From assembly GCA_014435945.1 (NCBI GenBank), contig GCA_014435945.1_4088.1: DNA of 64,000 nucleotides; one strand, 5' to 3'. Shown in pieces: positions 19,588 to 51,511 of this stretch. Numbering within the stretch: position 1 is the stretch's first letter; every line of letters starts with the position of its first letter. This DNA is from a phage. The notes below the pieces were generated by a model, which did no database searches, was not told where the DNA came from, and saw only the letters and a list, made by a program, of their open reading frames with translations. The position numbers and the translations under genes are program-made.

Positions 19588-19602
19588 TATAGTAAAAACA
19601 AT

Positions 19603-19630
19603 GGGGATTATTTAATCCCCTTTTATTGTT
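19603..19630 (+). terminator. intrinsic terminator
   Basis: GGGGATTA / TAATCCCC then TTTTATTGTTTTTT. Confidence 0.6.
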
Positions 19631-19686
19631 TTTTAAAAGTAGTAAATAGTATTATATGTGCTAGTTTTTTAAGGATAATATAAAAC

Positions 19687-21745: not shown

Positions 21746-21765
21746 GGTGCGTCCTTTTTTCTTTT
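21734..21765 (+). terminator. intrinsic terminator
   Basis: AGGATGCAC / GTGCGTCCT then T-run. Confidence 0.55.
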
Positions 21766-21775
21766 AAAAAATGGT

Positions 21776-21804
21776 TTGACAAATACATCGTGTGTATGTA
21801 GAAT
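21776..21804 (+). promoter_or_regulatory. sigma70-type promoter
   Basis: TTGACA-N17-TAGAAT. Confidence 0.55.
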
Positions 21805-21844
21805 GTACGTATCGTATCAATTTTAATTAATTAAGAGGTTAGTA

Positions 21845-22972: not shown

Positions 22973-22980
22973 AAAAGTAG

Positions 22981-23009
22981 TTGACAGTACTGAGTGTTGC
23001 CTGTAGAAT
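22981..23009 (+). promoter_or_regulatory. sigma70-type promoter
   Basis: TTGACA-N17-TAGAAT. Confidence 0.55.
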
Positions 23010-23055
23010 GTTTATCACTGAGCAACACTATCTTAAATTAACTGAGGAATACACA

Positions 23056-24198: not shown

Positions 24199-24201
24199 TA
24201 G

Positions 24202-24230
24202 TTGACACAAGAGTGCGTTTTCAATATAAT
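24202..24230 (+). promoter_or_regulatory. sigma70-type promoter embedded in terminator hairpin
   Basis: TTGACA-N17-TATAAT. Confidence 0.55.
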
Positions 24231-24257
24231 GTTCTTATTGAAACGCACTCTTTTTTA
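24211..24257 (+). terminator. hairpin plus T-run overlapping promoter -10
   Basis: GAGTGCGTTT / AAACGCACTC with 20-nt loop then TTTTTT. Confidence 0.45.
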
Positions 24258-24279
24258 ATATACTGATAAGGAACGAAAT

Positions 24280-24969
24280 ATGAAACGTCGTCATGTTAGT
24301 GTTGATATTGAAGCTCTCGGAACTCCTGAAAACTCTGGTTATGATATTATTATTCCAAATTATGCAGCAGTAGTTGTTCCAAGTAAACCTGAACATGATA
24401 TCAGACAATTTGTATATGTTAAGTTACCATACCAAGCACAAGTCAACGCTGGGCTGAAATCAGATGCAGGTGCAATGGATTTCTGGATGAATACATGTCA
24501 GAAGGAATATCCTAATGCATATGCTGAAGTTGCCAGTACTATGGCACTTGTTGCACCAGAATTGTACGGTCCTAATGGTAAATCCAAACAAATCTTTACT
24601 TCTAATGGTATTGTCGATTTCTGGAAAGATATCCGTTTTGATTGTTATGGTAACGAGGTTGAACATTCAATTTGGGGAAATGGCTGCAACTTCGACTGTA
24701 GTATTTTACAAGCTAATCACTTAAAACTATTAAATGTTGGTGATTTGTGGAAATATGATGCTCCTGAAAACGCACGAACCCTGAAGCGTTTATTGAATGA
24801 AGAAGCTCGTACCGAAATGGATGAGATTGTGTCAGTGCAGTTAGCTAAATTCGTGAAGTATGTAGAAAAATGTGGTATTGATGGTTTGGAATTACATCAC
24901 CCTCTGTATGATGCAGCACGTGAAGCTATCCAAATCTCCTATTGTCTCAATAAACTTAAACTGGACTAA
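24280..24969 (+). CDS. DEDD-type 3'-5' exonuclease (DexA-like)
   Basis: VSVDIEALG (Exo I) and HHPLYDA (Exo III) motifs. Confidence 0.6.
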   Translation: MKRRHVSVDIEALGTPENSGYDIIIPNYAAVVVPSKPEHDIRQFVYVKLPYQAQVNAGLKSDAGAMDFWMNTCQKEYPNAYAEVASTMALVAPELYGPNGKSKQIFTSNGIVDFWKDIRFDCYGNEVEHSIWGNGCNFDCSILQANHLKLLNVGDLWKYDAPENARTLKRLLNEEARTEMDEIVSVQLAKFVKYVEKCGIDGLELHHPLYDAAREAIQISYCLNKLKLD

Positions 24970-24972
24970 TAC

Positions 24973-26067
24973 ATGAATTTTATTATTCTGTTGATTCCTT
25001 CACTTATCGTTGTATTTGTTATGAAATACATGTATGATAAGCATATCAGTACTAAAGAACTGTTGATTCATATTGGTTGTTGTATAGTTGGTGCTGCTCT
25101 TGTGCTTGGTATCTCATATGCAATCAACTACAGTCAATTGTACGATGTAGAGATTCTAAATGGGCAGGTAACATCCAAATATAATCACAAGGAGTTTTGT
25201 ACACAATCAAGCTCATGTAAGCATTACACGTGGCACGAGAAATGCAGAACTCGTTATGATAGTAAGGGGAAATCCCATCGTGAATGTGAGTCCTATAAGG
25301 TATTTGATTATTCATACGAAGTTGACTGGTATGTAAAAAGTACTGTAGGGAAGTTTGAGATTAATCGAGTAAACCGTCAGGGTACAATGACCCCTCCACG
25401 CTGGCAACAGGTTAACATTGGGGATTATGCTGCCGCAGAAAGTTCTTATATTAACTATCTGTTCGCTGATAAAAACTCATTGTTCAGTCCTGATGAATTA
25501 CATGAAATGTATGATGAGAAATATCTTAGTACTTTACCAGAATACCCAAGTGTGGTAGACTATTATAAAACACACCATGTAATCAACACTACTAATTATA
25601 ATGTAGATGGTTATGATGAGTATCTGCGTGAAGAACTAAAAACTATGGGTGCACGTAAACAAGTCAACATCCAAGTTTTGGTTTATGATTATAAAAACGT
25701 AGATTTTGTTGAGGCAACACTCGCTTCGTGGCGTGGTGGTAAGAAGAATGATGTTATTATGTTCTTTGGAATTGATAATGATGGGAAGATTGTTAAATTT
25801 GATAGCACTTCCTTTGCACAAGGCATGAAGAACGAAGAACTACATGCTAAGATGCGAATGGATGCATTAAATGAAAAATTAACTCTTGACTTGTTGAGCA
25901 AAGAAGTGCATAATATTGACACAAAGTTTGAAAGACTCTCTAATAAAGAGTTCGAGTACTTGTCTGTAAAAATGGAACCACGTAAAGATGTTCTCATCGG
26001 TGCTTCTATTTTGTTACTGATTGTATCTATTTTCATTGGCCTTTATATGAGGGATAACAAGTTATGA
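24973..26067 (+). CDS. membrane protein
   Basis: N-terminal and C-terminal hydrophobic helices, Cys-rich segment. Confidence 0.5.
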   Translation: MNFIILLIPSLIVVFVMKYMYDKHISTKELLIHIGCCIVGAALVLGISYAINYSQLYDVEILNGQVTSKYNHKEFCTQSSSCKHYTWHEKCRTRYDSKGKSHRECESYKVFDYSYEVDWYVKSTVGKFEINRVNRQGTMTPPRWQQVNIGDYAAAESSYINYLFADKNSLFSPDELHEMYDEKYLSTLPEYPSVVDYYKTHHVINTTNYNVDGYDEYLREELKTMGARKQVNIQVLVYDYKNVDFVEATLASWRGGKKNDVIMFFGIDNDGKIVKFDSTSFAQGMKNEELHAKMRMDALNEKLTLDLLSKEVHNIDTKFERLSNKEFEYLSVKMEPRKDVLIGASILLLIVSIFIGLYMRDNKL

Positions 26068-26618
26068 ATGGTAAAATTATTGCATTGATTGGTGTTGTTG
26101 TTGTATTCGGTCTTATGGCAATTGGTTCAGTTAGTATGTATGTAGATGCACATGACCGTGCTGTTGAATTTGAAGGTAATATTAAAAAGTACTATGATGC
26201 ATCAGAAAGTCAACTAAGTAAATACACTCTTGTCATTCAAGAAAAAGTACAAGTTTCTGATAAGTATAAGGATGCATTGAAAGAAACCATCGAAACATAC
26301 TTTAAAGGTCGTGAAGGTGTTGACCAGAAGTTTGTGATGTCACAGATTCAACAACAGGTTCCTAATCTCGATCCTAAGATTTATCAAGAACTTATGGTAA
26401 CTATCGAGTCAGGACGTACACAGTTCAACAATCTTCAGAAAATGAAAATTGACCAGTGTACTGATTATGCTAAGTTCCGTAAAGGTTTCTGGAACTCCAA
26501 AATTCTTGATACTAACACATTCCCAAGTGAAAATATTGAACATTTATGTACAGTAGTTTCTGATACACGCACTAAGAAAGCAATGGATACTGGTATCCAA
26601 GAAGTAATTAAACTATAA
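26064..26618 (+). CDS. LemA-like membrane-anchored protein
   Basis: N-terminal TM followed by helical domain resembling LemA; tentative. Confidence 0.35.
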   Translation: MNGKIIALIGVVVVFGLMAIGSVSMYVDAHDRAVEFEGNIKKYYDASESQLSKYTLVIQEKVQVSDKYKDALKETIETYFKGREGVDQKFVMSQIQQQVPNLDPKIYQELMVTIESGRTQFNNLQKMKIDQCTDYAKFRKGFWNSKILDTNTFPSENIEHLCTVVSDTRTKKAMDTGIQEVIKL

Positions 26619-26627
26619 TCTAAATTT

Positions 26628-26653
26628 GGGAGTACATTGTACTCCCATTTTCT
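26628..26653 (+). terminator. intrinsic terminator
   Basis: GGGAGTAC / GTACTCCC then ATTTTCT. Confidence 0.55.
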
Positions 26654-26665
26654 ATAGGATTTATT

Positions 26666-27253
26666 ATGTTTTTAAAAAATACTTATGAATTAATTAAAAT
26701 GCTTCAAAATATGAATTCCGGTGGTCTATTCCCGTATCACTCTGAGGATAAAACTCATCGTTTAGTTTTGAAATTGGATGAAACTGGGCGTATTGCATCA
26801 CTAAGAACGGCTGTTCCAAATATAGATCAAGTAATTATGCCAACAACTCCGAATTCAGGAACTGCTGTTAATACACCACAAACATACAACTCAAACTACC
26901 AACACCCACAGATGTATACGATTAGTACTCCATCTATTACAAGAGTTGCTTGTATTGTTACTATAAAAGTATCAAAAGACTATCGTGATTTAATATCAGT
27001 TGAATGGTCGGAACTAACATCAGCATTTGCAAACAATGGGCTTGTTGTAACAAATTCTGGTATAGCAGTCAATGCAAAAGAAGGACAACAGATAATGAGT
27101 GCGTTGTATCTTAGCAATGGTTATGTTATCATTAATGGGAAGTTGTATTGTAACACCGAACCAGAAGCACTCACTGAAGATTTGATTAGTGAAAAAGAAT
27201 ATAGTCTTCTTGAAATTATGAATTTAAAAAAGGTATATGAAAACTGTGATTAG
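26666..27253 (+). CDS. hypothetical protein
   Basis: 195-aa ORF. Confidence 0.45.
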   Translation: MFLKNTYELIKMLQNMNSGGLFPYHSEDKTHRLVLKLDETGRIASLRTAVPNIDQVIMPTTPNSGTAVNTPQTYNSNYQHPQMYTISTPSITRVACIVTIKVSKDYRDLISVEWSELTSAFANNGLVVTNSGIAVNAKEGQQIMSALYLSNGYVIINGKLYCNTEPEALTEDLISEKEYSLLEIMNLKKVYENCD

Positions 27254-27821
27254 ATTTGATCAAGACGATTTGCCATTTATCCAAGAACTAGAAGAACTAG
27301 TTACGGTAACGATGCAGGAAATTAGTTCATGGGATATAACAGTTTTTAGGAACGTATATGATAAAATCACAAACTTTAAAACTGTTAATATTGAGGTAAA
27401 ACACAATAACTTTTACTTAACAAAAGAATTCATTCTAAAAAGACCAGGAACGATCCAACCGAAACGTAGTTTGTCTTTTGCTCAAGTTCTCGGTGCTAAG
27501 ACAAGGGATGATGATGATTTGAATGAATCAATATATTCGTATATTAAAGAGCGTTCTCCTGATGTTAAGAAGAGATATTACCTTTGTGTTACATTTGATG
27601 AACAAGGAAAACTAAATGCGTATTCTATAAATTCATCAGCACACGTCCCATTACATTCAACGTCAATTGGTGATAAACAATTACTAATCGATTCATCAAC
27701 ATGGCATAATAGGGAAAATTTTGCCACTGAAACTTTTCAGTACTCGGTATCTGAACCAAAGTCTCCATTTGATTTTGTGTTTGTTAATAACATCCTTTTA
27801 CGTTTTGGTGTAGGAGTCTAA
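27237..27821 (+). CDS. hypothetical protein
   Basis: 194-aa ORF. Confidence 0.45.
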   Translation: MKTVIRFDQDDLPFIQELEELVTVTMQEISSWDITVFRNVYDKITNFKTVNIEVKHNNFYLTKEFILKRPGTIQPKRSLSFAQVLGAKTRDDDDLNESIYSYIKERSPDVKKRYYLCVTFDEQGKLNAYSINSSAHVPLHSTSIGDKQLLIDSSTWHNRENFATETFQYSVSEPKSPFDFVFVNNILLRFGVGV

Positions 27822-27823
27822 AT

Positions 27824-28177
27824 ATGCTAATTTATTTGAGTGTTCTTGTTATTTCATTACTGGTATCATTAGCAGTACTGAAAGTTGTTGCCATCGGTCG
27901 TAGTAAAATGGATAGTACTGAAACCAGTTCTGTGTTGGACCTAATAATGGATCATCCAAAGATCTGTACTGGGATTGTTGTGTTTGTTCTTCTTATAGGA
28001 ACATTCATTGTACGTACACATTTATACAATATGTATGACTGTAGTGTTCGTTCAATTTCCCAGGGTGTTGAAACCGACTATAGCTGGTACTATGAGAAAT
28101 GTCGCTTCAAAAACCAGCATGGTATTTGGGTTGATTTTGATAAACTGCGTGGCACACCATCTGGTGAAGAAGAGTAA
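27824..28177 (+). CDS. membrane protein
   Basis: two hydrophobic helices. Confidence 0.45.
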   Translation: MLIYLSVLVISLLVSLAVLKVVAIGRSKMDSTETSSVLDLIMDHPKICTGIVVFVLLIGTFIVRTHLYNMYDCSVRSISQGVETDYSWYYEKCRFKNQHGIWVDFDKLRGTPSGEEE

Positions 28178-28179
28178 TT

Positions 28180-28671
28180 ATGTTTGAATTTCCTGAAGAG
28201 TCATTTAACTATATTGACCCTACTGATGATGGATACAGACATATTAATATCTATAGTAAAGCTAAGACTAAGTTAGGTAGGGATCTATCTAACTTTTCTT
28301 CACATAGTTTTACCTTAGAACCATATGGTTGGTTCCCATCGGTAGAAACTTTTTATTTTTGGTTTTTAACAGGCCAGAAACATGATGATCTTAGAAAAGT
28401 GTCGGGTGCTGCTGCAAAAGCAGCGGCGAACAAGTATATGCACGACCGTATTGAAATGACACCCGAATGCATTTCTCGTATCCAGGATGCAATATGTGCT
28501 AAGATATTTCAAAACCCAGAACTTGCTGAACGATTGAGGAAAAGTAAGTTACCCTTCTATCATTACTATGTTTATGGTGGGAAGGTGGTTGATGTATCTG
28601 ATGAACATGACTGGTTTGTTAAAACATTCGAAGATATAAGAATTGTTTTGAAGGAGAACCACAATGAGTAA
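28180..28671 (+). CDS. NADAR-like (YbiA/DUF1768-like) protein
   Basis: LSNF ... S.E.FYF ... helical tail pattern resembling NADAR domain; by eye. Confidence 0.4.
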   Translation: MFEFPEESFNYIDPTDDGYRHINIYSKAKTKLGRDLSNFSSHSFTLEPYGWFPSVETFYFWFLTGQKHDDLRKVSGAAAKAAANKYMHDRIEMTPECISRIQDAICAKIFQNPELAERLRKSKLPFYHYYVYGGKVVDVSDEHDWFVKTFEDIRIVLKENHNE

Positions 28672-28942
28672 ATGTTGGGTATGTTGTAAGCAATTCGATG
28701 AAGATTATATTATTTCTTTGGATGTATTACCACAACAATACATGATATCTTCAGGGAAATATAAACTAGATACAGTTCCAACACCTAAGTATATGGGGAT
28801 TTGTCCATTGTGTAATGCAAATGGGGTATCGAATGAAGTTGTTGCATTCACAAATACACAAACTACTGATTGTGTCGCCGAATATATAAGAAAGAATCTG
28901 GCTTTTTTCACTAGGAGATTATATGAACGAGAGAATCTTTAA
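28664..28942 (+). CDS. zinc-ribbon protein
   Basis: CWVCC ... CPLC cysteine pairs. Confidence 0.4.
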   Translation: MSKCWVCCKQFDEDYIISLDVLPQQYMISSGKYKLDTVPTPKYMGICPLCNANGVSNEVVAFTNTQTTDCVAEYIRKNLAFFTRRLYERENL

Positions 28943-29159
28943 TTCATATGATATGGAAGATTTACTAATACCATCTGATAACAGTACTGTTAAAATGCAA
29001 ATGTATTGGTTAGTAAAAGATGGAAAGGTATTCCAGCACAAAGTTACAAAAGTATGGCAATGTAATAAAAACAAATCTATAGTTGATGCACTCGCAACTG
29101 CATATCCTGGGGTAGAGGTTGTATTTTTACCATTTGCCTACATTAAGGAAATAAAATGA
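28923..29159 (+). CDS. hypothetical protein
   Basis: 78-aa ORF. Confidence 0.4.
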   Translation: MNERIFNSYDMEDLLIPSDNSTVKMQMYWLVKDGKVFQHKVTKVWQCNKNKSIVDALATAYPGVEVVFLPFAYIKEIK

Positions 29160-29323
29160 AAAAAGCATGGACAATATTCGTAATACCTACTATAATGTTG
29201 TTATTGTCACTTACGGTCCCGCAAGGGTATGTTGTGGCACTGAATGTAGTAGAAATTATTCTTCTTGTAATTCACTGCATTGTATGTTACTATTATGTAA
29301 AATCGGATGATAAAAAAATATGA
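29156..29323 (+). CDS. small hydrophobic peptide (55 aa)
   Basis: Unlisted ORF with ATGA overlaps at both ends; two hydrophobic helices. Confidence 0.3.
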   Translation: MKKAWTIFVIPTIMLLLSLTVPQGYVVALNVVEIILLVIHCIVCYYYVKSDDKKI

Positions 29324-29742
29324 AGTACTATCGAATTCGAGTTGGTGTAAGCTCTGGTTTTAGTAATTGGGTATATTATGATTTACCTGATAGCTATACC
29401 GTAGAAGATGTAATTGACTTATATTATGAAGAAGAGTCATGGGTATCCAGTACTGAAACACACAGTGTTGTGTGTGAAGAACTGAGTGCTGAAGATTACA
29501 AGCACTGTACCCAAGCAATGAAGTATTACAGTAAAGATGTGAAGATGTTATCTGAAAACGTTTTTCCTGTAAAAGAATGGGCAATTTTGCTTGCAAATCC
29601 TAACAAACCTGTTAGAATAGGTTATCCAAACAATCATATGGTTTATCGAATGAATGATAAACGTGAGCTAAGTTATCAGTATGATTACAGTGCTTCTAAG
29701 TTTGGAGTTCTAAAACAATTTATGAAGGCTTATCCAGTATGA
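29320..29742 (+). CDS. hypothetical protein
   Basis: 140-aa ORF. Confidence 0.45.
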   Translation: MKYYRIRVGVSSGFSNWVYYDLPDSYTVEDVIDLYYEEESWVSSTETHSVVCEELSAEDYKHCTQAMKYYSKDVKMLSENVFPVKEWAILLANPNKPVRIGYPNNHMVYRMNDKRELSYQYDYSASKFGVLKQFMKAYPV

Positions 29743-30074
29743 GCAAAGACAGCAAAGAATTTATAGTGCGTTGTAGTTGTGGCGATAATACGGAACATTG
29801 TGTTCACATTTCACAATTTGACTTGACACAAGAACATGGAGATGATAAACTTGGTCAATGTCTGGTGAGTATGCGTTTGAATCCTTTCTTAAAATGGTAC
29901 AAACGTGTATGGGTTGCATTGAAGTATATTTTCGGCGTAAACGACTTTCAATACAAAGAAGCAATGATTGATGTTGACATTCTGAAAGAAGTTGTGTTAC
30001 AATTAGAAGATACCCGCTCCGATGAGGTAAAGAAAGAAGAAAGAGATAAACGTACTGATGTGAAGGTTTTATGA
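29739..30074 (+). CDS. hypothetical protein
   Basis: 111-aa ORF. Confidence 0.45.
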   Translation: MSKDSKEFIVRCSCGDNTEHCVHISQFDLTQEHGDDKLGQCLVSMRLNPFLKWYKRVWVALKYIFGVNDFQYKEAMIDVDILKEVVLQLEDTRSDEVKKEERDKRTDVKVL

Positions 30075-30265
30075 GTACTGAACTTTATGAAAAAAAGTAC
30101 TGTACAAATTGTTCAACCGAGTATACAATACAGGGTATGTTGATTTGTACAATATGCCAATCAAAACAGGCTGCCACTTTTATCGTTGATGATAGATTTG
30201 GTGATTTAAAACAGTTTAAAGCAAACCGTAATCTTCGTAACTTTAGCAATCTATATAAGGAATAA
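30071..30265 (+). CDS. zinc-ribbon protein
   Basis: CTNC ... CTIC. Confidence 0.4.
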   Translation: MSTELYEKKYCTNCSTEYTIQGMLICTICQSKQAATFIVDDRFGDLKQFKANRNLRNFSNLYKE

Positions 30266-30268
30266 CAC

Positions 30269-30697
30269 ATGAATATCGAACAAACTATCCGTAACCATTC
30301 TTTCTTCGCTGCTGAAACTGGTCGTGTAATCGAGAGCGTCAAAATTGAAGAACTGATGATTAACGTTAAATATAAAGAACTGAATGATGAGATTAGCAGC
30401 ACCATTTGTGCACTACGTGCTCCATTCCGTTCTGAAGCAGCTAAGAAACCTGCTTATGTACTGGCGATTGCATTGGGTTGTGTAGTGAAATTGGTCGTTG
30501 ATGAAAATCAACTAAATATCAAAGTTGCTCCAACTAACGATGAAGAAAACATCGACCTGAACTTTGAAGGTAATCTGGCTGAAGACGTATTCTTCCAACA
30601 ATCACTGGTTTATGATTTCCGTACCGTAACTCATGACCATATCAACTTTGTCAATGAGATGGTTGACATTGTAGCTGAATACGAAGCTTCCCTATAA
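30269..30697 (+). CDS. paralog family A protein (C-terminal EE..FQ.S.V.D module)
   Basis: AEDVFFQQSLVYDF near C-terminus; terminator follows. Confidence 0.6.
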   Translation: MNIEQTIRNHSFFAAETGRVIESVKIEELMINVKYKELNDEISSTICALRAPFRSEAAKKPAYVLAIALGCVVKLVVDENQLNIKVAPTNDEENIDLNFEGNLAEDVFFQQSLVYDFRTVTHDHINFVNEMVDIVAEYEASL

Positions 30698-30710
30698 TTA
30701 GATTAACAAA

Positions 30711-30735
30711 AGCCTCCGTAATGGGGGCTTTTTCC
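30711..30735 (+). terminator. intrinsic terminator
   Basis: AGCCTCC / GGGGGCT then TTTTT. Confidence 0.55.
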
Positions 30736-30753
30736 AACATAAGGATATGAATA

Positions 30754-31305
30754 ATGATTGACCAAATTAAAATCCTAACTGAACAAATCACTGATTTTCT
30801 AGCAGATAAAGATGGATTCAGTACTGAAGTTAAAATGCATGGTGTTAGTCTCGATGTAACTGCACCAAATGGTGAAACAACCAATTATGATATGTATGAA
30901 ATCCTACTTTATACATTGGCTGTTCGTAAACTTGGTAGTGATATTGAACTAAACATTAACAAAACCGAGAACGGTGACCAAGTGTTTGCAATCAACACTG
31001 GTGCACAAATGGACGTGGTAGCTGAAATCAACAAGATCAACCAATCTTTTGTGGGTTTCAAGCATGATACAATCCAATCTGTGTTCCTGGGTAAACAAAC
31101 CGGAAACAGCCACTGTCCTTATTGTGTAATGACAACCTATAAGAATGGTAACTGGATGCGTCAGGATCTAGTACTTGCTGAAATGCTTTATGCAATCACA
31201 CACGGCCTAGAACTTGAACTTGATGATAGCGTGTACTGTTTCAAGAAAATCCGTAAACTTTCTGGTGATATACAAGCTCAATTAAAAGAATTAAATGATA
31301 AATAA
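30754..31305 (+). CDS. hypothetical protein
   Basis: 183-aa ORF. Confidence 0.5.
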   Translation: MIDQIKILTEQITDFLADKDGFSTEVKMHGVSLDVTAPNGETTNYDMYEILLYTLAVRKLGSDIELNINKTENGDQVFAINTGAQMDVVAEINKINQSFVGFKHDTIQSVFLGKQTGNSHCPYCVMTTYKNGNWMRQDLVLAEMLYAITHGLELELDDSVYCFKKIRKLSGDIQAQLKELNDK

Positions 31306-31462
31306 TTATACCAGTAATGGTTAACATTATCATGTTACTTTCCTCCCTTACATAATAATGATGCGTTATTATTTTATTGTATTATTCCCCTTTTTCGTAC
31401 AAAATCTTTTTCGTACTGCCCCGACCTTCGGGGCATTTTTCTTGTCTAAATTTTGAGGTTCT

Positions 31463-31858
31463 ATGAATAATACTATTGGTAGTACAATATCTAAACCACT
31501 CTCTTATTACCTTGAAAAATTCAGAAGTACAAATGGTAAAAAATTTAATGGCATATACCAATTCTCACATAAAGAATATATCACAGTTGATTGTTATTCA
31601 AATAAACTTATGTACGTAGATGATACTGAATACTGTATGAAATTGTCATTGGATGTAGAATTAGATAAGTTAACATTTATTGAATATACATCCAAAAGAA
31701 CATCATTTCTTGGGAAATGTAATCGAAAAGTATATAAAAATATTTCAATGTACTTAAATGAAGATTACCACTTCCAACAAACAACGATTGAAGATGTTCT
31801 ATTCAGTACTGAAGAATTGAAAGAACTATATTATTGGTATAAGAAATTTACAACTTGA
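31463..31858 (+). CDS. paralog family A protein
   Basis: NEDYHFQQTTIEDV. Confidence 0.55.
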   Translation: MNNTIGSTISKPLSYYLEKFRSTNGKKFNGIYQFSHKEYITVDCYSNKLMYVDDTEYCMKLSLDVELDKLTFIEYTSKRTSFLGKCNRKVYKNISMYLNEDYHFQQTTIEDVLFSTEELKELYYWYKKFTT

Positions 31859-31913
31859 CATTATCGTGGATTTATCCTACACTGTAAGATAATGATGAAT
31901 AGAGGATAAATTT

Positions 31914-32324
31914 ATGAGTTTAGATTTACACAATGAACTAAAATATTATTTCGATTTGGATATATCACATTTGAACCAACACGTCAATTATATGACTAGT
32001 ACTATTTGGTGGTCTGATGAGTTTGATGAACCAAAAATCCAACTTTGTGGTGATTTGTCCGTTTTGAGGTTGTATGCCCTTGATTCGGAAATGAATATCA
32101 AGATCACATACATACCATACACAAACAAACTTATTGTAAACACCCTAAACCCAGTTACAGTATTGAAAATTTCTGATTTGGACACGATACAGTCAGATGA
32201 ATCACTATTCCAACGTTCTTTGATTGATGATATGGGTGGTATTTTATATGAAGATATTGTACAATTGAAGAAGATGTATAGTGAATTGTTAGAAATTAAA
32301 AACACAGTAATTGTGGGGAGTTGA
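31914..32324 (+). CDS. paralog family A protein
   Basis: SDESLFQRSLIDDM. Confidence 0.55.
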   Translation: MSLDLHNELKYYFDLDISHLNQHVNYMTSTIWWSDEFDEPKIQLCGDLSVLRLYALDSEMNIKITYIPYTNKLIVNTLNPVTVLKISDLDTIQSDESLFQRSLIDDMGGILYEDIVQLKKMYSELLEIKNTVIVGS

Positions 32325-32325
32325 T

Positions 32326-32730
32326 ATGGTAAGTTTACTTGATATTGATAATACCAGTCTAGTACTGGCAAAAAAAGGTGTAATTCCCAATTCTACAAAA
32401 ATTGATTATGCAGTTATTGAAACAAATATTGGAAATATCTGGTATGACTCCGAAAGGGATATTGTGATTAGCTGCGTAGACAGTGACCGTGCTGAGTGTT
32501 GTAGGGTTGGTCATGACGGGCAATTTATTTTCGAATTCCGTTACTGGAAAGATGCTAAATTCCATCATGAGCATGTTTCAATTACAGGTGTGTATTGCAC
32601 CGAAGAATCGTTCTTCATGGATAGTACTGTTAATGATTTTGGTTCAGTTACATTTGAGTACTATAAAAAAGTATACAACATATCCAGAGAAGTAATGCGA
32701 ATCATCAGAAATGCTGAGGGTCAAGATTAA
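32326..32730 (+). CDS. paralog family A protein
   Basis: TEESFFMDSTVNDF; start moved to ATG after GGGGAG SD. Confidence 0.55.
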   Translation: MVSLLDIDNTSLVLAKKGVIPNSTKIDYAVIETNIGNIWYDSERDIVISCVDSDRAECCRVGHDGQFIFEFRYWKDAKFHHEHVSITGVYCTEESFFMDSTVNDFGSVTFEYYKKVYNISREVMRIIRNAEGQD

Positions 32731-32731
32731 C

Positions 32732-33106
32732 ATGACTACTATATATGACATTCTAGGTGACTTGAATAAAAATATAGATAATGATTTTGTTATTGTTGGA
32801 ACTACACAAAATATAATTCATCTTCCATTGGGTACACCAGATAGGTTAATTTTTAATATATACGGAAAAACACTGACATACCTACACGATGGTATGGTTA
32901 TATTGGTACTTGATATTAAAGAAAATACAATACGATATGCATATGACTTCAACGATTATTGGTCAAGAACCCATAGTATTGATATTGAGGAAGATGAACT
33001 ATTTCAATTGTCGTTAATCGAGAAAAATGTATTAGGAGTTACCGAAATTGGCATTGTTAAAAAAGCATTAGAATATGTAAATAGCAAATTAAATGGTGAG
33101 CTATGA
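32732..33106 (+). CDS. paralog family A protein
   Basis: EEDELFQLSLIEKN. Confidence 0.55.
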   Translation: MTTIYDILGDLNKNIDNDFVIVGTTQNIIHLPLGTPDRLIFNIYGKTLTYLHDGMVILVLDIKENTIRYAYDFNDYWSRTHSIDIEEDELFQLSLIEKNVLGVTEIGIVKKALEYVNSKLNGEL

Positions 33107-33558
33107 TGAAAATTGATGAAATAAAAAATCATTTTGAAATTGCATTGTCTTGTAAATTTGATGGCTCTTATGTTCCTGATCCAGAAGAGATAATTAGAAT
33201 TTCCACATCGTTTTCGGAAGAGTACAATATTCTTATTGAGAAAACATATGACAGTACTGAACTCGCATTTTACAATAAGAATTCACGAACAACAACATTT
33301 ATATTATTATATAACACAACATCGGATATAATAGAAATTATAACATGTAAAACAAGCAAAGATATACATTATGAGACTATCTCAAATGTGAGTTATTGCT
33401 CAACTGAAGAAGGATACTTTCAGGAATCTCTTGTTAAAAATTTAACAGTTAGTTATTCTGATTTAAGCACTATAATCAATTGTGTTGAAAAGCTAAATGA
33501 TTTCGTTCTATCTATGTTTGATATCACAGAGCAAAACCCGAAGGTAATCAAATGCTAA
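33103..33558 (+). CDS. paralog family A protein
   Basis: TEEGYFQESLVKNL. Confidence 0.55.
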   Translation: MMKIDEIKNHFEIALSCKFDGSYVPDPEEIIRISTSFSEEYNILIEKTYDSTELAFYNKNSRTTTFILLYNTTSDIIEIITCKTSKDIHYETISNVSYCSTEEGYFQESLVKNLTVSYSDLSTIINCVEKLNDFVLSMFDITEQNPKVIKC

Positions 33559-34007
33559 ATCCAGGACAGTTTTTCCATTTACTTAGTATTACACCTATAC
33601 CGGATTTAATCAGTGAAGCGAATCAATATCGTGATATAGGAATTGTATCTATGGAATACGATTCACCTGACTTTAAATGTTACGTAACATATGATTTGGT
33701 AGCCTATGAGTCAGAAACTGAGATAAAAAAACCATCATACATTTTTGTGTTCATATATAATGATTATAGTGGTGATCTACTCAATGATGTTCATATTGAC
33801 ACATTTGAAATATGTGATAATATTATAACAGATGATTCATCATGTACATTTGATTTATCAGAAAACAGTACTGAAGAGGCACTTTTTCAGTTGAGTACTG
33901 TTAGTGACACTGTACTAACTCTTGATGACATTGAGAAATTTAAAGAACAGCTTGACGCAGTACGTGAGATGTTCTATAATCATTATCCAGAAATCGAGTT
34001 CAATTAA
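33552..34007 (+). CDS. paralog family A protein
   Basis: STEEALFQLSTVSD. Confidence 0.55.
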   Translation: MLNPGQFFHLLSITPIPDLISEANQYRDIGIVSMEYDSPDFKCYVTYDLVAYESETEIKKPSYIFVFIYNDYSGDLLNDVHIDTFEICDNIITDDSSCTFDLSENSTEEALFQLSTVSDTVLTLDDIEKFKEQLDAVREMFYNHYPEIEFN

Positions 34008-34021
34008 CTAAAGGTATCAAA

Positions 34022-34282
34022 ATGACTAAAGTAGTTCGTAAACGCCACATGATGAACATGGATGAATTTCGCACCTTTGACAAATACCGTACTATGTTTC
34101 GTATGCTGTCACAGGGCCGTCCAATCGTCATTGTAACGGAGAATTACATGTCACCTGAGATGATGTTCGGTAATTATGAAAAGGTCTTCATGTTGTACGT
34201 GAAGCGTGAATTGCTAACGATTAAGACCTTAGCTGAAGCTACAGATGAAGATATGGATGGTGATAATACATTTACCATGTGA
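34022..34282 (+). CDS. hypothetical protein
   Basis: 86-aa ORF. Confidence 0.45.
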   Translation: MTKVVRKRHMMNMDEFRTFDKYRTMFRMLSQGRPIVIVTENYMSPEMMFGNYEKVFMLYVKRELLTIKTLAEATDEDMDGDNTFTM

Positions 34283-34360
34283 GGAAATATATGGCAGAAA
34301 AACCAAAAGAACCATTGGACCGTGATGATGATTTTTACGACGAACGATATGGGGAATCAG

Positions 34361-34612
34361 ATGAGTGAACATCGTGCAGTACTTAAAAAGATTTTAAATG
34401 AACTTGGTGATGAGTTTAATGTTACTGAAGAAGAATATCAATGTTGGAAGAAGGATTTTGAACTCCTTGCTGAGTATGATAAAGTCTTCAATATGATTGG
34501 TGTCATTAGCCAGTACTTACTTGGTGGTGGTCGAGCCAGTGCTTCAATTCTTGCATCTGCGATCATCTGTACTTCTCGATGGTGCGATGAAAAAAGTCTG
34601 GAAGATTTCTAA
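34361..34612 (+). CDS. hypothetical protein
   Basis: Start at ATG 34361 (MSEHRAV) within ORF 34322..34612. Confidence 0.4.
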   Translation: MSEHRAVLKKILNELGDEFNVTEEEYQCWKKDFELLAEYDKVFNMIGVISQYLLGGGRASASILASAIICTSRWCDEKSLEDF

Positions 34613-34618
34613 ATAAGA

Positions 34619-34628
34619 TGCTATAATG
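34619..34628 (+). promoter_or_regulatory. extended -10 promoter element
   Basis: TGCTATAAT about 37 nt upstream of the methyltransferase start; no clear -35. Confidence 0.35.
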
Positions 34629-34664
34629 TATTATAGTACCTTAACAATATAAAAAGGATTTTAT

Positions 34665-35525
34665 ATGAAACCTATCAGAGTACTGTCACTTTTTAATGGA
34701 ATGAGCGTTGGATATATGGCATTGGCAGATGCAGGTATTCCAGTTGAAAAATATTACTCATCTGAAATTGACAAGTACGCAATTGCTGAATCTTCCGAGA
34801 ATTTTCCTGATATTATCCAGTTAGGTGATGTGACTAAGTGGAAAGAATGGGATATTGAGTGGGATAAGATAGATTTACTCATGGGAGGATTCCCATGTCA
34901 AGCCTGGTCTGTTGCTGGTAAGCAAGGTGGCTTGAATGATATACGTGGACAGTTATTTTTGGTTATGGTTGACATTTTTGAGCACATCAAAAGTGTAAAT
35001 CCAAACTTGCAATTTCTGTTCGAGAATGTTAAAATGAAGGAAGATTTCAAAGAATACATTAATAGTATTTTAGGAATCACACCAGTACTGATAAATTCCC
35101 AGCATTATACGCCTCACTTCAGGCAGAGATACTACTGGTGCAGTACTGATAAGCTTTTTATACCACCTGCATTATCAAATGCCCCTAAACTTCAAGATAT
35201 CATTGAAGATGGTTGGTACACTGACAGAACCGCTTCGTACTGTATAGATGCTAACTATTTTAAGGGTGGTGATTGTAACCAGTACTTTAATAAATCAAGA
35301 CGACAGTTGGTGTTTCGTGACCCAACGATTAATCGTCAATATCTATTGGAGAATGGTAAAAGAAATATTGACTATAGACACTTAAGTGTAGTAGAATGTT
35401 GTAAATTACAGGGTATTCCTGTAGATTTCTTTAAAGTGTCTAGTAAGACACAAGCATACAAAATGCTTGGGAATGGATGGACTATGCCAGTTATATCACA
35501 CTTACTAAGAGAGATATTCTTTTGA
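34665..35525 (+). CDS. DNA (cytosine-5)-methyltransferase-like protein
   Basis: Motif IV GGFPCQAWS, motif VI FENV, motif VIII Q..R.R, C-terminal GNGWTMP; motif I atypical (LFNGMSVG). Confidence 0.7.
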   Translation: MKPIRVLSLFNGMSVGYMALADAGIPVEKYYSSEIDKYAIAESSENFPDIIQLGDVTKWKEWDIEWDKIDLLMGGFPCQAWSVAGKQGGLNDIRGQLFLVMVDIFEHIKSVNPNLQFLFENVKMKEDFKEYINSILGITPVLINSQHYTPHFRQRYYWCSTDKLFIPPALSNAPKLQDIIEDGWYTDRTASYCIDANYFKGGDCNQYFNKSRRQLVFRDPTINRQYLLENGKRNIDYRHLSVVECCKLQGIPVDFFKVSSKTQAYKMLGNGWTMPVISHLLREIFF

Positions 35526-35527
35526 AC

Positions 35528-36007
35528 ATGAAGAACTACCCCACCTATACTGAACGTGTAATGAAATTTCAACGTCAGTCATCAAAGGAAGAATTAGAAT
35601 TTAATTTGTACTATCCTAATATTGGTGATGAGGTATTCTATTGTTCTCATACAAAGAATGGAACTTTACTTAAATCCGGTAAAGGTATTATTGTTGATAT
35701 GATTAGCACTTTCAAAGGTAAACTTAATGTAATGTACAAAGTACAAGATTCAAGTACTGAGTGCATTCATGAAGTGATGCATAATATACCTGCATATCCA
35801 AAGGATTTTGTTGAGCTAATATCTCGAAGGGAGAAACCTATGTTTTATTGTGGTTATGACAAACTAACCAAACAAATTATTCCTAATACTATGGGAAAAT
35901 TTAAAAGTGATGTTAAAACTGAACTTAATAAGAAATTAGGTTCATCATGGGAAACTGAAAACGAATTCATCGAAATTCGTTTGATTGAAGTTACTATACT
36001 CGATTAA
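35528..36007 (+). CDS. hypothetical protein
   Basis: Start ATG 35528 just after methyltransferase stop. Confidence 0.45.
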   Translation: MKNYPTYTERVMKFQRQSSKEELEFNLYYPNIGDEVFYCSHTKNGTLLKSGKGIIVDMISTFKGKLNVMYKVQDSSTECIHEVMHNIPAYPKDFVELISRREKPMFYCGYDKLTKQIIPNTMGKFKSDVKTELNKKLGSSWETENEFIEIRLIEVTILD

Positions 36008-36013
36008 TTACAG

Positions 36014-36037
36014 ATCCACGCTATGCGTGGATTTTTC
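36014..36037 (+). terminator. intrinsic terminator
   Basis: ATCCACGC / GCGTGGAT then TTTT. Confidence 0.6.
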
Positions 36038-36049
36038 ATAGGTGCATAT

Positions 36050-36565
36050 ATGACAGTTCCTTATGTTAAAATTATTAATAATATCCTTGATTCATGGGAA
36101 GATGTTATTACTGGTAAAAAGAACCCAATGCCAGTACACGCACTAACCGGGAGACTACAATTCAGAACGTCAAACAAAACTGAAACTTTTAATAATCATG
36201 ATGTTCACATTACTATAAAATCACCTGTACGTATTGTAATTAAAAAAAATCAAGATGATGAATTGACATTATCTATTGGTAGTGATAAAATCATTTTAAG
36301 TAATTTATCCGAAGAAGAATTCTTTCAACGAAGTACTATCATCGACATGAAAGATTTCACATATGAATCATTGGTTGAACTCAATGCACGTTTCAACGAT
36401 ATTCAGGAACGATTGCGACCAATCCTCCGCAAAGAAGAAGAAGCATGGAATGAAAGTGTAAGAAAGATGCAAGAAATGTTGAAAGAAAATATTAACAATC
36501 TGGGTAAAGCTACAATGGAATTTGGTAAATCTTTTAAACTGAACTTTTCAAAGGATCGTAAATGA
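36050..36565 (+). CDS. paralog family A protein
   Basis: SEEEFFQRSTIIDM; start placed after terminator hairpin. Confidence 0.55.
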   Translation: MTVPYVKIINNILDSWEDVITGKKNPMPVHALTGRLQFRTSNKTETFNNHDVHITIKSPVRIVIKKNQDDELTLSIGSDKIILSNLSEEEFFQRSTIIDMKDFTYESLVELNARFNDIQERLRPILRKEEEAWNESVRKMQEMLKENINNLGKATMEFGKSFKLNFSKDRK

Positions 36566-37017
36566 AAATTGATAATTTGATTCATGTCTTAGGGACTTTA
36601 CATAAAATATTATTACATCTTAACGAGATGAATAAACTAGGTTATAATGTCCATAATGTATTTGAACCTACATTTAAATATAACTCAATCACTGGAGATG
36701 GTAATTACATAATCGAATATACATATGAAACCGATCCAGACTTCTATCCTCTTACGTTGAGAATTTATCCAACAAATCCGATAGGAATTCACGACATATC
36801 ATCAATTTCACTTGATCCAGATGGTGAAACGAGTATTGAATACAATAATGATTCAAAACCAGAATTTTACATTGATGACATTAAAAAGTTGTTCAATGAT
36901 GAATATGTTTTCCAACAAAGTACTGTGCATGATGTTGGTAGTACTACTGGGCAATTTTGGAATACATGTTATTATCATATGATTGAAATTTGTAAATTAC
37001 TAAAAGGTGTTGAATAA
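36562..37017 (+). CDS. paralog family A protein
   Basis: NDEYVFQQSTVHDV. Confidence 0.55.
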   Translation: MKIDNLIHVLGTLHKILLHLNEMNKLGYNVHNVFEPTFKYNSITGDGNYIIEYTYETDPDFYPLTLRIYPTNPIGIHDISSISLDPDGETSIEYNNDSKPEFYIDDIKKLFNDEYVFQQSTVHDVGSTTGQFWNTCYYHMIEICKLLKGVE

Positions 37018-37400
37018 TGAAATACTGCATTGAAGTACATTACACTACAGGTGATACTGAAAATTGTTATGACGTTCTTAATACAATTGATATTCAATGG
37101 TCTTCTAAAGAGGAAGCAGTTGCTGCTTTACAGTGCCTAAAAGAGCATTGGGTGTTTTATATGAAGCAAGATAATTGCTATACAAAAGAACACGAAACGA
37201 TCATGGAAAATGCTAAACAAAAAGAGTGGTTTGACCCAATATCACCAGAATATTCATTCTTGGTTAAAGTTGGCGATGTAACTGTTCCATTACGAACACC
37301 GTGGAACGGCTACTTTGAAACTCTTCATAATGCACGAGTTGTCGCTGTTGATAACCCTGAACAAATCGATTTCGATTCATTGGACTGGAAAAAACTATGA
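37017..37400 (+). CDS. hypothetical protein
   Basis: 127-aa ORF. Confidence 0.45.
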   Translation: MKYCIEVHYTTGDTENCYDVLNTIDIQWSSKEEAVAALQCLKEHWVFYMKQDNCYTKEHETIMENAKQKEWFDPISPEYSFLVKVGDVTVPLRTPWNGYFETLHNARVVAVDNPEQIDFDSLDWKKL

Positions 37401-37840
37401 CAGTACTGCACCGATTGAAGAAGGTTAAGCATCCAGTTGTATATGAGGACTGGAAACGACAGAAGTTGCTGGGTGATTTTTATTACCCAAAATCTAAAGT
37501 TCTTGCGAATTCAAGATGTACATATTGCACACATAATGATAAAGATACAGTATTTGTCGAAATGGGTTTCCATCCATCAAACACAATGTTCACTACTAAC
37601 CAAACGTTTTACAAATTTCATATACAAAAAGATTCATTTACTGTTATGATTATAAAACATTTAGTTGAAGATCTGGCATTCAGTGAAGAACGAGTACCTT
37701 TATCATTAGTGGATATTCCTTATAATAATTTAGAGGAAATGTACTTCCAACAGTTGACAGTACAAGAAAACTTTGGTATGATAGGACTTCAAGAGTTAGA
37801 GATGATTAAGCAAATTCGTGATATCTACTTTAAGGAGTAA
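37397..37840 (+). CDS. paralog family A protein
   Basis: LEEMYFQQLTVQEN. Confidence 0.55.
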   Translation: MTVLHRLKKVKHPVVYEDWKRQKLLGDFYYPKSKVLANSRCTYCTHNDKDTVFVEMGFHPSNTMFTTNQTFYKFHIQKDSFTVMIIKHLVEDLAFSEERVPLSLVDIPYNNLEEMYFQQLTVQENFGMIGLQELEMIKQIRDIYFKE

Positions 37841-37842
37841 CT

Positions 37843-37986
37843 ATGCCAGTACGTAACAGTACTTCACGCTTTACGCTTCAACAGAAAGCAGATCTTTTGA
37901 ATATGGCAAACAAAGATTCTAATTTTCACTATCTAGTACTCGGTGGTTCAGTTGAAAAGATTGACCTACGTGAGTGTATGAAATAA
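37843..37986 (+). CDS. small protein (47 aa)
   Basis: Unlisted ORF with strong AAGGAG SD 7 nt upstream. Confidence 0.4.
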   Translation: MPVRNSTSRFTLQQKADLLNMANKDSNFHYLVLGGSVEKIDLRECMK

Positions 37987-38002
37987 CAAAAAGGGGACTA
38001 AA

Positions 38003-38173
38003 ATGAGTCTACGTGAATCATGGGAACAATTTAAAGAAGAGATTGGTTATCGTGGTGTCAAAATCGAACCAATCAATCGCACCGAAAGCATCAAAGCTAG
38101 TACTAATGGCACTACCTATGATCGTTATGATGAAAAGTATGGTTTACATTCTAAACCAAAGGATACTGAGTAA
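38003..38173 (+). CDS. small protein (56 aa)
   Basis: Unlisted ORF with AAAGGGGA SD. Confidence 0.35.
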   Translation: MSLRESWEQFKEEIGYRGVKIEPINRTESIKASTNGTTYDRYDEKYGLHSKPKDTE

Positions 38174-51481: not shown

Positions 51482-51511
51482 TTGACATTTTTACTTCTAC
51501 TGTGTTATACT
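51482..51511 (+). promoter_or_regulatory. sigma70-type promoter
   Basis: TTGACA-N18-TATACT. Confidence 0.45.

What the first reader, a model, noticed from the sequence alone, without database searches (positions are those of the whole stretch)
34665..35525. Compact orphan C5-cytosine methyltransferase-like gene with an atypical motif I
Motifs IV (GFPCQ), VI (ENV), VIII and X are canonical, but the 286-aa protein is short, implying a small target-recognition domain, and the AdoMet-binding motif I reads LFNGMSVG instead of F-x-G-x-G-G. No partner restriction gene is evident. It is embedded in the family A island, so it could be an anti-restriction methylase of short specificity or an enzyme with an altered cofactor or reaction.
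Basis: partly seen in the sequence, partly recalled or inferred. Interest (0 to 1): 0.5.

Follow-up and report, generated by a model that had tools for sequence, protein, structure and literature searches.

The report
Ordinary orphan phage cytosine-5 DNA methyltransferase
This is a normal, intact cytosine-5 DNA methyltransferase gene of a giant E. coli phage, already annotated in public records; its "odd" cofactor motif is the standard one for its subfamily and is shared with the active human enzymes DNMT3A and DNMT3B.

Summary
The ORF at 34665..35525 (+), 286 aa, is real and is a C5-cytosine DNA methyltransferase (Pfam PF00145, E=4.7e-37). The window is 100% identical to Escherichia phage BF17, a 383-kb Asteriusvirus. 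Near-identical phages annotate this gene as a DNA (cytosine) methyltransferase, and three phage papers mention it.

Motif I, LFNGMSVG, is not aberrant. Its F-x-G-x-[S/A]-x-G pattern occurs in about 80% of the closest homologues and in DNMT3A/3B (LFDGIATG). Those enzymes are the best solved-structure matches by sequence (E about 1e-23, full length) and by fold (TM 0.79). The catalytic residues C78, E120, R153 and R155 and cofactor residues F10, E34 and D55 are conserved. An altered cofactor or reaction is therefore not supported.

No nuclease gene lies within about 10 kb, and homologues sit in phage contexts, so it is an orphan. The most likely role is protective 5mC methylation of phage DNA. 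The target site is unknown. Published digests of a phage with the identical protein argue against blanket CpG, CCWGG or AGCT methylation.

Interest is low. Three side observations are more striking: AGTACT is the commonest hexamer, GCGC is absent, and relatives carry an intein at the catalytic cysteine.

The parts
34654..34658 (+). Shine-Dalgarno-like AAGGA, 6 nt upstream of the ATG
   Evidence: Read directly from the sequence. No convincing sigma-70 promoter or terminator is specific to this gene; scan counts equal the shuffled expectation. The gene sits in a long co-directional array.
34665..35525 (+). Complete ORF of 286 aa: orphan C5-cytosine DNA methyltransferase, DNMT3-like subfamily
   Evidence: 100% DNA identity to phage BF17. 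AlphaFold model pLDDT 92.6, pTM 0.90. The top 50 PDB fold hits are all DNMT3A/B/C catalytic domains, TM 0.73-0.79.
34683..34712 (+). Motif I (LSLFNGMSVG, residues 7-16), AdoMet-binding loop of the DNMT3 type
   Evidence: Aligned to VLSLFDGIATG of DNMT3B. S8, L9, F10 and G12 are invariant, and S14 and G16 at least 90% conserved, in 80 homologues.
34884..34910 (+). Motif IV (GGFPCQAWS, residues 74-82); catalytic nucleophile Cys78 is codon 34896..34898
   Evidence: G75, P77 and C78 are invariant. This position is also the intein insertion site in relatives.
35013..35030 (+). Motif VI (FLFENV, residues 117-122)
   Evidence: E120, N121 and V122 are invariant in 80 homologues.
35115..35138 (+). Motif VIII (HFRQRYYW, residues 151-158)
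   Evidence: R153, R155 and W158 are invariant. It aligns with AHRARYFW of DNMT3B and QKRERIY of HhaI.
35139..35372 (+). Small target-recognition region (residues 159-236). It includes the subfamily-conserved block DRxxSYCIDANYxKGGxxxQYFxKSRRQ (residues 187-214).
   Evidence: Conserved positions D187, R188, S191, C193, D195-Y198, K200-G202, Y207, K210 and R212-Q214. The region is about 80 aa, a compact size like that of DNMT3B and without the long insertion HhaI carries before this block.
35376..35420 (+). Motif IX (RHLSVVECCKLQGIP, residues 238-252)
   Evidence: R238, L240 and E244 are invariant.
35457..35501 (+). Motif X (YKMLGNGWTMPVISH, residues 265-279)
   Evidence: Y265, G269 and N270 are invariant. 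It aligns with LLGRSWSVPVIRH of DNMT3B.

Best explanation
The gene encodes an active, stand-alone (orphan), AdoMet-dependent DNA cytosine-5 methyltransferase of the DNMT3-like subfamily that is widespread in phages. Mechanism, inferred from the family: the target cytosine is flipped out and Cys78 (motif IV, PCQ) attacks C6. Glu120 (ENV) and Arg153/Arg155 (motif VIII) hold and activate the base. The methyl group comes from AdoMet bound by motif I (F10, loop G12-M-S-V-G16), Glu34 (motif II) and Asp55 (motif III). A compact recognition region of about 80 aa reads a site that is probably 2-5 bp long. The enzyme is made during infection and methylates replicating phage DNA, so that a subset of host restriction enzymes cannot cut it. 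This complements the strong palindrome avoidance seen in the same genome. What is shown: family membership, intact catalytic and cofactor residues, the DNMT3-like fold, orphan status, and conservation across the RaK2-like jumbo phages. What is inferred: activity, DNA rather than RNA as substrate, timing of expression, and the anti-restriction role. What is unknown: the recognition sequence.
For: - Family: PF00145 E=4.7e-37; phrog_116 'DNA methyltransferase' E=1e-58; TIGR00675.
- Closest solved structures: full-length phmmer matches to the DNMT3B/3A/3C catalytic domains (E about 1e-23, residues 2-282 against 6-277), better than HhaI (7e-17) or DNMT2 (1e-9).
- Fold: a confident AlphaFold model (pLDDT 92.6) whose 50 best PDB neighbours are all DNMT3 catalytic domains (TM up to 0.79).
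- Residues: the catalytic residues and cofactor residues F10 and E34 are invariant in 80 homologues, and D55 is at least 90% conserved there and invariant in the 10-sequence alignment.
- Motif I: the DNMT3-type motif is the norm in the subfamily.
- Family size: 1,553 cluster representatives at E<=1e-30.
- Orphan status: no nuclease domain in the neighbours tested, none annotated within +/-10 kb, and homologues at 43-47% identity sit next to phage ligase, RecA and portal genes without restriction genes.
- Conservation: the protein is 100% identical in seven listed Asteriusvirus records, including BF17, and is conserved in Mimasvirus (GAP32, CBB; 74-76%) and Alcyoneusvirus (RaK2, K64-1; 63%).
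- Intein: several relatives carry an intein exactly at the catalytic Cys. From general knowledge, inteins typically sit at functionally critical sites.
- Published readings: the phAPEC6, Sharanji, UE-S1 and CBB papers all interpret the gene as protective methylation (PMC7247149, PMC11895373, PMC12805682, PMC5259590).
Against: - No methylation data exist for any of these phages in the literature I could search.
[quoted passage not shown] Any methylation therefore does not cover those sites. The result is equally compatible with an enzyme that is poorly active on virion DNA.
- The genome already avoids most short GC-rich palindromes, so the added protective value of one methylase is unclear.
- The BASEL phage study found no simple link between phage methyltransferase genes and restriction resistance in another phage family (PMC8594841).
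Confidence: 0.8

Rival explanations
1. One reading: the deviant motif I means an altered cofactor or a different reaction, for example a non-AdoMet donor or a non-methyl transfer.
For: Motif I lacks the textbook G-G dipeptide.
Against: The same motif shape, F-x-G-x-[A/S]-x-G, occurs in DNMT3A/3B. These are AdoMet-dependent 5mC writers with many solved cofactor-bound structures. It is also the subfamily consensus. E34, D55, C78, E120, R153 and R155 are all conserved.
Confidence: 0.03
2. It is the methylase half of a restriction-modification system whose nuclease lies elsewhere or is unrecognised among the hypothetical neighbours. One candidate would be a phage nuclease used against host DNA.
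For: Many neighbours have no detectable domains. GCGC is totally absent from the phage clade, which could hint at a phage-encoded sequence-specific nuclease.
Against: No nuclease signature appears in the neighbours tested with Pfam or PADLOC. Homologues in unrelated phages are also solitary. If a phage nuclease cut GCGC, no methylase would be needed, because the genome has no GCGC.
Confidence: 0.04
3. It acts on RNA, like the tRNA methyltransferase DNMT2. The phage clade encodes many tRNAs, and one record labels its homologue 'DNMT2'.
For: The Turkey5 record annotates its homologue as 'DNMT2'. tRNA genes lie near the homologue in GAP32.
Against: Similarity to DNMT2 chains (E 1e-9 to 1e-6, N-terminal half only) is far weaker than to DNMT3 (E 1e-23, full length). 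The recognition region reads SYCIDANY, not the DNMT2-defining CFT motif (PMC3227630; sequence).
Confidence: 0.02
4. It does not serve anti-restriction. Instead it marks the hyper-abundant palindrome AGTACT, or its GTAC core, as a phage 'self' or regulatory signal.
For: AGTACT is the most frequent hexamer and is selected at the DNA level in all three reading frames. Both this enrichment and the methylase are conserved in Asteriusvirus, Mimasvirus and Alcyoneusvirus. None of the enzymes used on fEgEco12 DNA probes GTAC.
Against: The co-occurrence can be explained by shared ancestry alone. phi92-like phages carry a homologue that is 50% identical by tblastn (57% in the alignment), with a nearly identical recognition-region core. 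Yet they have no AGTACT in 17 kb and normal GTAC levels. Marine phage contigs with homologues at 43-47% identity are depleted in GTAC. The phages also encode adenine methylases that are equally good candidates (PMC11895373).
Confidence: 0.07

Closest known systems
Annotated orthologues in Asteriusvirus and relatives (121Q gp91, PBECO4, phAPEC6, Sharanji 'haeIIIM', WPEC3 'Dcm', GAP32_390, the CBB methyltransferase, RaK2 ORF194)
   Same: The same gene: 100% protein identity in BF17, fEgEco12, WPEC3 and others; about 96% in 121Q and PBECO4; 74-76% in GAP32 and CBB; 63% in RaK2. The genomic neighbourhood is the same.
   Different: Nothing of substance. Some records label it only 'hypothetical protein', and names such as HaeIII, HpaII or DNMT2 are automatic labels with no specificity evidence behind them.
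Catalytic domain of eukaryotic DNMT3A/3B/3C
   Same: It is the best sequence and fold match among solved structures. The length is the same (about 285 aa), motif I has the same shape (LFDGIATG against LFNGMSVG), the recognition region is compact, and motifs VIII to X are similar.
   Different: Identity is only about 27%. The phage protein has no PWWP or ADD regulatory domains. It has PCQ rather than PCN in motif IV. The residues of the DNMT3 recognition loop and dimer interface are not conserved. CpG specificity is unlikely given the SmaI, ClaI and NruI digests of fEgEco12 DNA. Oligomeric state was not tested.
Phage orphan C5-methyltransferases with short specificities, such as the TET-associated phage C5-MTs (GpC[C/T], GpC) and chlorella-virus M.CviPI (PMC8256090), and the stand-alone Dnmt3-clustering M.CviAIV from Chlorella (PMC3227630)
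   Same: They are virus-encoded, solitary, single-domain C5 methylases. They show that viral enzymes of this general kind can be active with 2-3 bp specificity, and that a stand-alone enzyme can cluster with DNMT3.
   Different: I could not obtain their sequences, so their relatedness to this protein is untested. No TET/JBP or glycosyltransferase partner was found among the neighbours here. Generic GpC methylation would, from memory, block HindIII, which cuts fEgEco12 DNA normally.
Classical type II modification methylases M.HhaI and M.HaeIII
   Same: The same superfamily, the same ten-motif order and the same catalytic residues.
   Different: They have a canonical F-x-G-x-G-G motif I, a longer recognition domain and a cognate endonuclease. 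Similarity to the query is confined mainly to the N-terminal half.

Membership tests
C5-cytosine DNA methyltransferase superfamily (Pfam PF00145 / TIGR00675 dcm) | The profile match exceeds the curated thresholds. | tested here: met
   PF00145 128.6 bits against a cut-off of 22. TIGR00675 117.2 bits against a cut-off of 100.65.
C5-cytosine DNA methyltransferase superfamily (Pfam PF00145 / TIGR00675 dcm) | Catalytic Pro-Cys (motif IV), Glu-Asn-Val (motif VI), R-x-R (motif VIII) and G-N (motif X), in the canonical order. | tested here: met
   P77-C78, E120-N121-V122, R153/R155 and G269-N270 are all present in order and invariant in 80 homologues.
C5-cytosine DNA methyltransferase superfamily (Pfam PF00145 / TIGR00675 dcm) | AdoMet-dependent 5mC formation on DNA. 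| not testable with these tools
   This needs enzymology or methylome sequencing. No such data were found for any orthologue.
DNMT3-like subfamily of C5-MTases (catalytic-domain level) | Motif I of the form F-[DN]-G-[IM]-[AS]-x-G rather than F-x-G-x-G-G. | tested here: met
   LFNGMSVG aligns with LFDGIATG. This pattern is the majority in the subfamily.
DNMT3-like subfamily of C5-MTases (catalytic-domain level) | DNMT3 catalytic domains are the closest solved structures by both sequence and fold, over the full length. | tested here: met
   E about 1e-23 over residues 2-282. Foldseek top 50 hits are all DNMT3A/B/C, TM 0.73-0.79.
Eukaryotic DNMT3 family proper (orthologue) | N-terminal chromatin-reading modules (PWWP, ADD) and CpG specificity through the recognition-loop arginine and dimer interface. 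| tested here: not met
   The protein is a bare 286-aa catalytic domain. The recognition-loop and interface residues are not conserved. CpG-sensitive enzymes cut the DNA of a phage encoding the identical protein. It therefore resembles the DNMT3 catalytic domain but is not a DNMT3.
Type II restriction-modification system | A cognate restriction endonuclease gene is adjacent. | tested here: not met
   No nuclease domain appears in the flanking ORFs tested. None is annotated within +/-10 kb. Homologues in other phages are solitary too.
Phage orphan DNA methyltransferase | Encoded in a virulent phage genome, solitary, and conserved across the phage lineage. | tested here: met
   BF17 Asteriusvirus. 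Conserved in three jumbo-phage genera.
DNMT2 / tRNA m5C38 methyltransferase | A CFT motif in the recognition region next to motif IX, with the closest similarity to DNMT2. | tested here: not met
   There is no CFT motif; the region reads SYCIDANY. DNMT2 matches are weak and partial (E 1e-9 to 1e-6). The criterion comes from PMC3227630.

The most novel reading that the evidence does not exclude
The methylase is not a generic anti-restriction device. Instead it writes 5mC on the GTAC core of AGTACT, a palindrome that the RaK2-like jumbo phages have driven to be their most frequent hexamer through DNA-level selection in all three reading frames. Together with the complete absence of GCGC, this would amount to a sequence-plus-epigenetic 'self' signature that distinguishes phage DNA from host DNA.
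Probability: 0.07. Interest if true: 0.65.

Novelty: already known. Interest (0 to 1): 0.15.

Why it matters
The finding as stated matters little. It is a correctly recognisable, already annotated phage methylase, and the supposed anomaly disappears once the right reference subfamily (DNMT3-like) is used.

Two modest points of value remain:
- The recognition sequence of this very large phage subfamily appears to be undetermined. The subfamily has 1,553 representatives at E<=1e-30, and in virome surveys phage cytosine-methylase genes are commonly labelled 'DNMT3A'. One EM-seq experiment on an easily grown coliphage would assign it.
- The genome around the gene carries unusually strong sequence signatures (AGTACT excess, GCGC absence) that deserve their own investigation.

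Tried and rejected
- Literature. I searched for methylome or specificity data on Asteriusvirus, GAP32, RaK2 and similar phages. I found only statements that the gene 'suggests protective methylation', plus one set of restriction digests.
- TET-associated phage C5-MTs. I tried to obtain their sequences from PMC8256090 to test relatedness, but no supplement is held.
- Specificity from genomic context. Homologues lie in phage contigs without nucleases, so no cognate enzyme reveals the site.
- Specificity from k-mer statistics. The genome avoids GCGC, CGCG, GATC, CCGG, CATG and GGCC and does not avoid GTAC, TGCA, ACGT or CTAG. This pattern does not single out a target. The AGTACT idea is weakened by phi92-like and marine phages, which carry homologues without the enrichment.
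- Promoter and terminator scan. Counts equal the shuffled expectation, so it is uninformative.
- Rejected readings: altered cofactor (motif I is of the DNMT3 type), DNMT2-like RNA enzyme (no CFT motif, weak similarity), and a TET-coupled hypermodification module (no partner domain in the neighbours).
- Caveat on reference sequences. The DNMT3B segments agree with the PDB alignment printed.

Full report
**Observation.** The ORF is present exactly as described: ATG at 34665, stop ending at 35525, 286 aa, + strand. An AAGGA ribosome-binding element lies 6 nt upstream.

**Source of the window and prior knowledge.** The gene is 100% identical in DNA to Escherichia phage BF17, a 383-kb jumbo myovirus of the genus Asteriusvirus, and 99.2-99.9% identical to eight other records.
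- BF17 labels it 'hypothetical protein'. Phages with the identical or a near-identical protein label it DNA (cytosine) methyltransferase: fEgEco12, WPEC3, WPEC5, Ecwhy_1, 121Q gp91, PBECO4, phAPEC6 and Sharanji.
- The phAPEC6, Sharanji, UE-S1 and CBB papers mention it as presumptive protective methylation (PMC7247149, PMC11895373, PMC12805682, PMC5259590).
- Orthologues at 74-76% identity occur in Mimasvirus (GAP32, CBB), Erwinia phages and Xanthomonas phage XbC2. Orthologues at 63% occur in Alcyoneusvirus (RaK2, K64-1).
- The gene is therefore already known and annotated.

**The 'atypical' motif I.** The best matches among all solved structures are not bacterial enzymes. They are the catalytic domains of DNMT3B, DNMT3A and DNMT3C (E about 1e-23).
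- The DNMT3B and DNMT3C alignments run over the whole protein (residues 2-282 against 6-277). This compares with E=7e-17 for HhaI (N-terminal half only) and 1e-9 for DNMT2.
- In that alignment KPIRVLSLFNGMSVGYMAL pairs with RPIRVLSLFDGIATGYLVL.
- Among the 120 closest database homologues, 96 of the 117 with a recognisable motif have F-x-G-x-x-x-G. FDGMSCG is the commonest form, and FNGMSVG occurs 12 times.
- Among 148 representatives of 50%-identity clusters, 104 of the 129 in which the search pattern found a motif I show the same shape, and only 2 show G-G.
- The subfamily is large: more than 8,000 hits at E<=1e-10 in the indexed search, and 1,553 cluster representatives at E<=1e-30 in the exhaustive one.
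- In an 80-sequence alignment F10, G12, E34, P77, C78, E120-N121-V122, R153, R155 and G269-N270 are invariant. S14, G16 and D55 are at least 90% conserved.
- An AlphaFold model built on that alignment is confident (pLDDT 92.6, pTM 0.90). Its 50 best Foldseek neighbours in the PDB are all DNMT3A/B/C catalytic domains (TM 0.73-0.79, about 27% identity).
- DNMT3A and DNMT3B are active AdoMet-dependent 5mC writers (established knowledge).

**Size and target-recognition region.** At 286 aa the protein matches the DNMT3 catalytic domain (about 285 aa) and many subfamily members (268-300 aa).
- The region between motifs VIII and IX is about 80 aa. It contains a block, DRxxSYCIDANYxKGGxxxQYFxKSRRQ, that is highly conserved even in homologues of 43-57% identity from phi92-like coliphages and marine phage contigs.
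- The compact region is compatible with a short site but does not show one. The query also matches the 333-position PADLOC profile of the DISARM methylase DrmMII over its full length. From memory, that enzyme recognises the 5-bp site CCWGG.

**Orphan status.**
- Ten flanking ORFs have no Pfam domain above threshold, and the six flanking ORFs tested match no PADLOC defence model.
- Nothing but hypothetical proteins is annotated within +/-9-10 kb in BF17 and WPEC3.
- Two homologues at 43-47% identity lie in phage contigs beside ligase, RecA and portal genes, without nucleases.
- The flanking ORFs share only a short C-terminal F-Q-x-S-like motif.

**Constraints on specificity.** The only experimental data I found are restriction digests of fEgEco12 virion DNA. 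That phage's methylase protein is 100% identical to the one in the window.
- From standard methylation-sensitivity tables (recalled, not checked here), SmaI, ClaI and NruI are blocked by CpG methylation, SexAI by CCWGG methylation, and HindIII by AAG(m5C)TT.
- The enzyme is therefore unlikely to be a general CpG, GpC, CCWGG or AGCT methylase.
- Phage C5 methylases with GpC[C/T] or GpC specificity have been characterised (PMC8256090). A stand-alone enzyme from Chlorella that clusters with DNMT3, M.CviAIV, was noted in 2011 (PMC3227630). I could not test how closely either relates to this protein.
- In a coral and seawater virome survey, phage cytosine-methylase genes are among the commonest 'metabolic' genes and some are labelled 'DNMT3A' (PMC11309003).

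**Most likely function.** It is an active orphan C5 DNA methyltransferase that methylates replicating phage DNA at a short, still unknown site and so blocks some host restriction enzymes.
- This works alongside strong site avoidance. The six most depleted tetranucleotides in the window are all palindromes: GCGC, CGCG, GATC, CCGG, CATG and GGCC.
- Family membership, intact residues, fold, orphan status and lineage conservation are shown. Activity, substrate, timing of expression and role are inferred.

**Side observations.** These lie outside the finding and are not explained by it.
1. AGTACT excess.
   - AGTACT is the single most frequent hexamer: 153 sites in the 64-kb window against 22 expected from base composition (z=29 against an order-2 Markov model). 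There are 204 sites in 50 kb of another part of fEgEco12.
   - No wider consensus exists beyond a weak (C)AGTACT(G).
   - Synonymous codon choice is bent to create the site in all three reading frames. Ser-Thr is encoded AGT-ACT in 58 of 102 cases against 14.4 expected. Tyr between xAG and Txx is TAC in 22 of 28 cases against 33% overall. GTA-CTN is used for Val-Leu 59 times against 25.6 expected.
2. GCGC absence. GCGC is completely absent from the window (0 against about 59 expected) and from the other 50 kb (0 against about 46).
3. Distribution of both signatures.
   - They recur in GAP32 (a Cronobacter phage) and RaK2 (a Klebsiella phage). They therefore appear to belong to this phage clade rather than to one host.
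   - They are absent from phi92-like and marine phages that carry methylase homologues.
   - None of the 38 papers that mention at least two of GAP32, RaK2, 121Q and PBECO4 contains the string AGTACT.
   - A link to the methylase is possible but weakly supported; I put it at about 7%.
4. Intein in relatives.
   - In several Asteriusviruses (ph0011, UE-S1, JNE01, TH47, A4) the orthologue is 626 aa. A 340-aa intein with Hint and LAGLIDADG domains is inserted exactly before the catalytic cysteine: GGFP|CFPAG...VVHN|CQAW.
   - Six of the 148 cluster representatives carry inteins at the same position.
   - The window carries the intein-free allele.

**Verdict.** The gene is an ordinary, already annotated member of a known kind, so interest is low (0.15).

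Noticed in passing
whole window 1..64000; also L008 (fEgEco12 1-50000), L009 (GAP32), L011 (ph0011), L012 (RaK2): AGTACT is the most frequent hexamer, at 7-12x the base-composition expectation: 153 sites in the window, z=29 against an order-2 Markov model. It occurs in all three reading frames, and synonymous codons are biased to create it (AGT-ACT in 58 of 102 Ser-Thr pairs against 14.4 expected). The enrichment is conserved in Asteriusvirus, Mimasvirus and Alcyoneusvirus. It is absent from phi92-like and marine phages. It is not mentioned in any paper found on these phages.
   Followed up: partly
whole window 1..64000; L008, L009, L011, L012: GCGC is completely absent: 0 sites against about 59 expected in the window, and 0 in 50 kb of fEgEco12, 17 kb of GAP32 and 17 kb of RaK2. 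The six most depleted tetramers in the window are all palindromes (GCGC, CGCG, GATC, CCGG, CATG, GGCC). Avoidance shared by phages of three host genera suggests a phage-intrinsic cause, possibly a phage nuclease directed at host DNA, though this is untested.
   Followed up: partly
L011:4981-6000 (Escherichia phage ph0011), within CDS L011:4750-6630; the corresponding empty site in the window lies between 34895 and 34896: In some Asteriusviruses (ph0011, UE-S1, JNE01, TH47, A4) the orthologous methylase carries a 340-aa intein with Hint and LAGLIDADG domains. It is inserted exactly before the catalytic Cys78 of motif IV (GGFP|C...VVHN|CQAW). Six of 148 subfamily cluster representatives have inteins at the same site. 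The window has the intein-free allele.
   Followed up: yes
window 31914..34007 and 36023..37840, + strand: The small ORFs flanking the methylase share a short C-terminal motif of the type E-x-[FL]-F-Q-x-S-[TL]-[IV]-x-D. They have no Pfam or PADLOC hit. Pairwise BLAST similarity is weak and confined to about 35 residues.
   Followed up: partly
L012:7995-8888 (RaK2 ORF194): The RaK2 orthologue has P-C-T instead of P-C-Q in motif IV and an 8-residue insertion after motif IV. This is ordinary variation within the family; DNMT3B has P-C-N at the same position.
   Followed up: no
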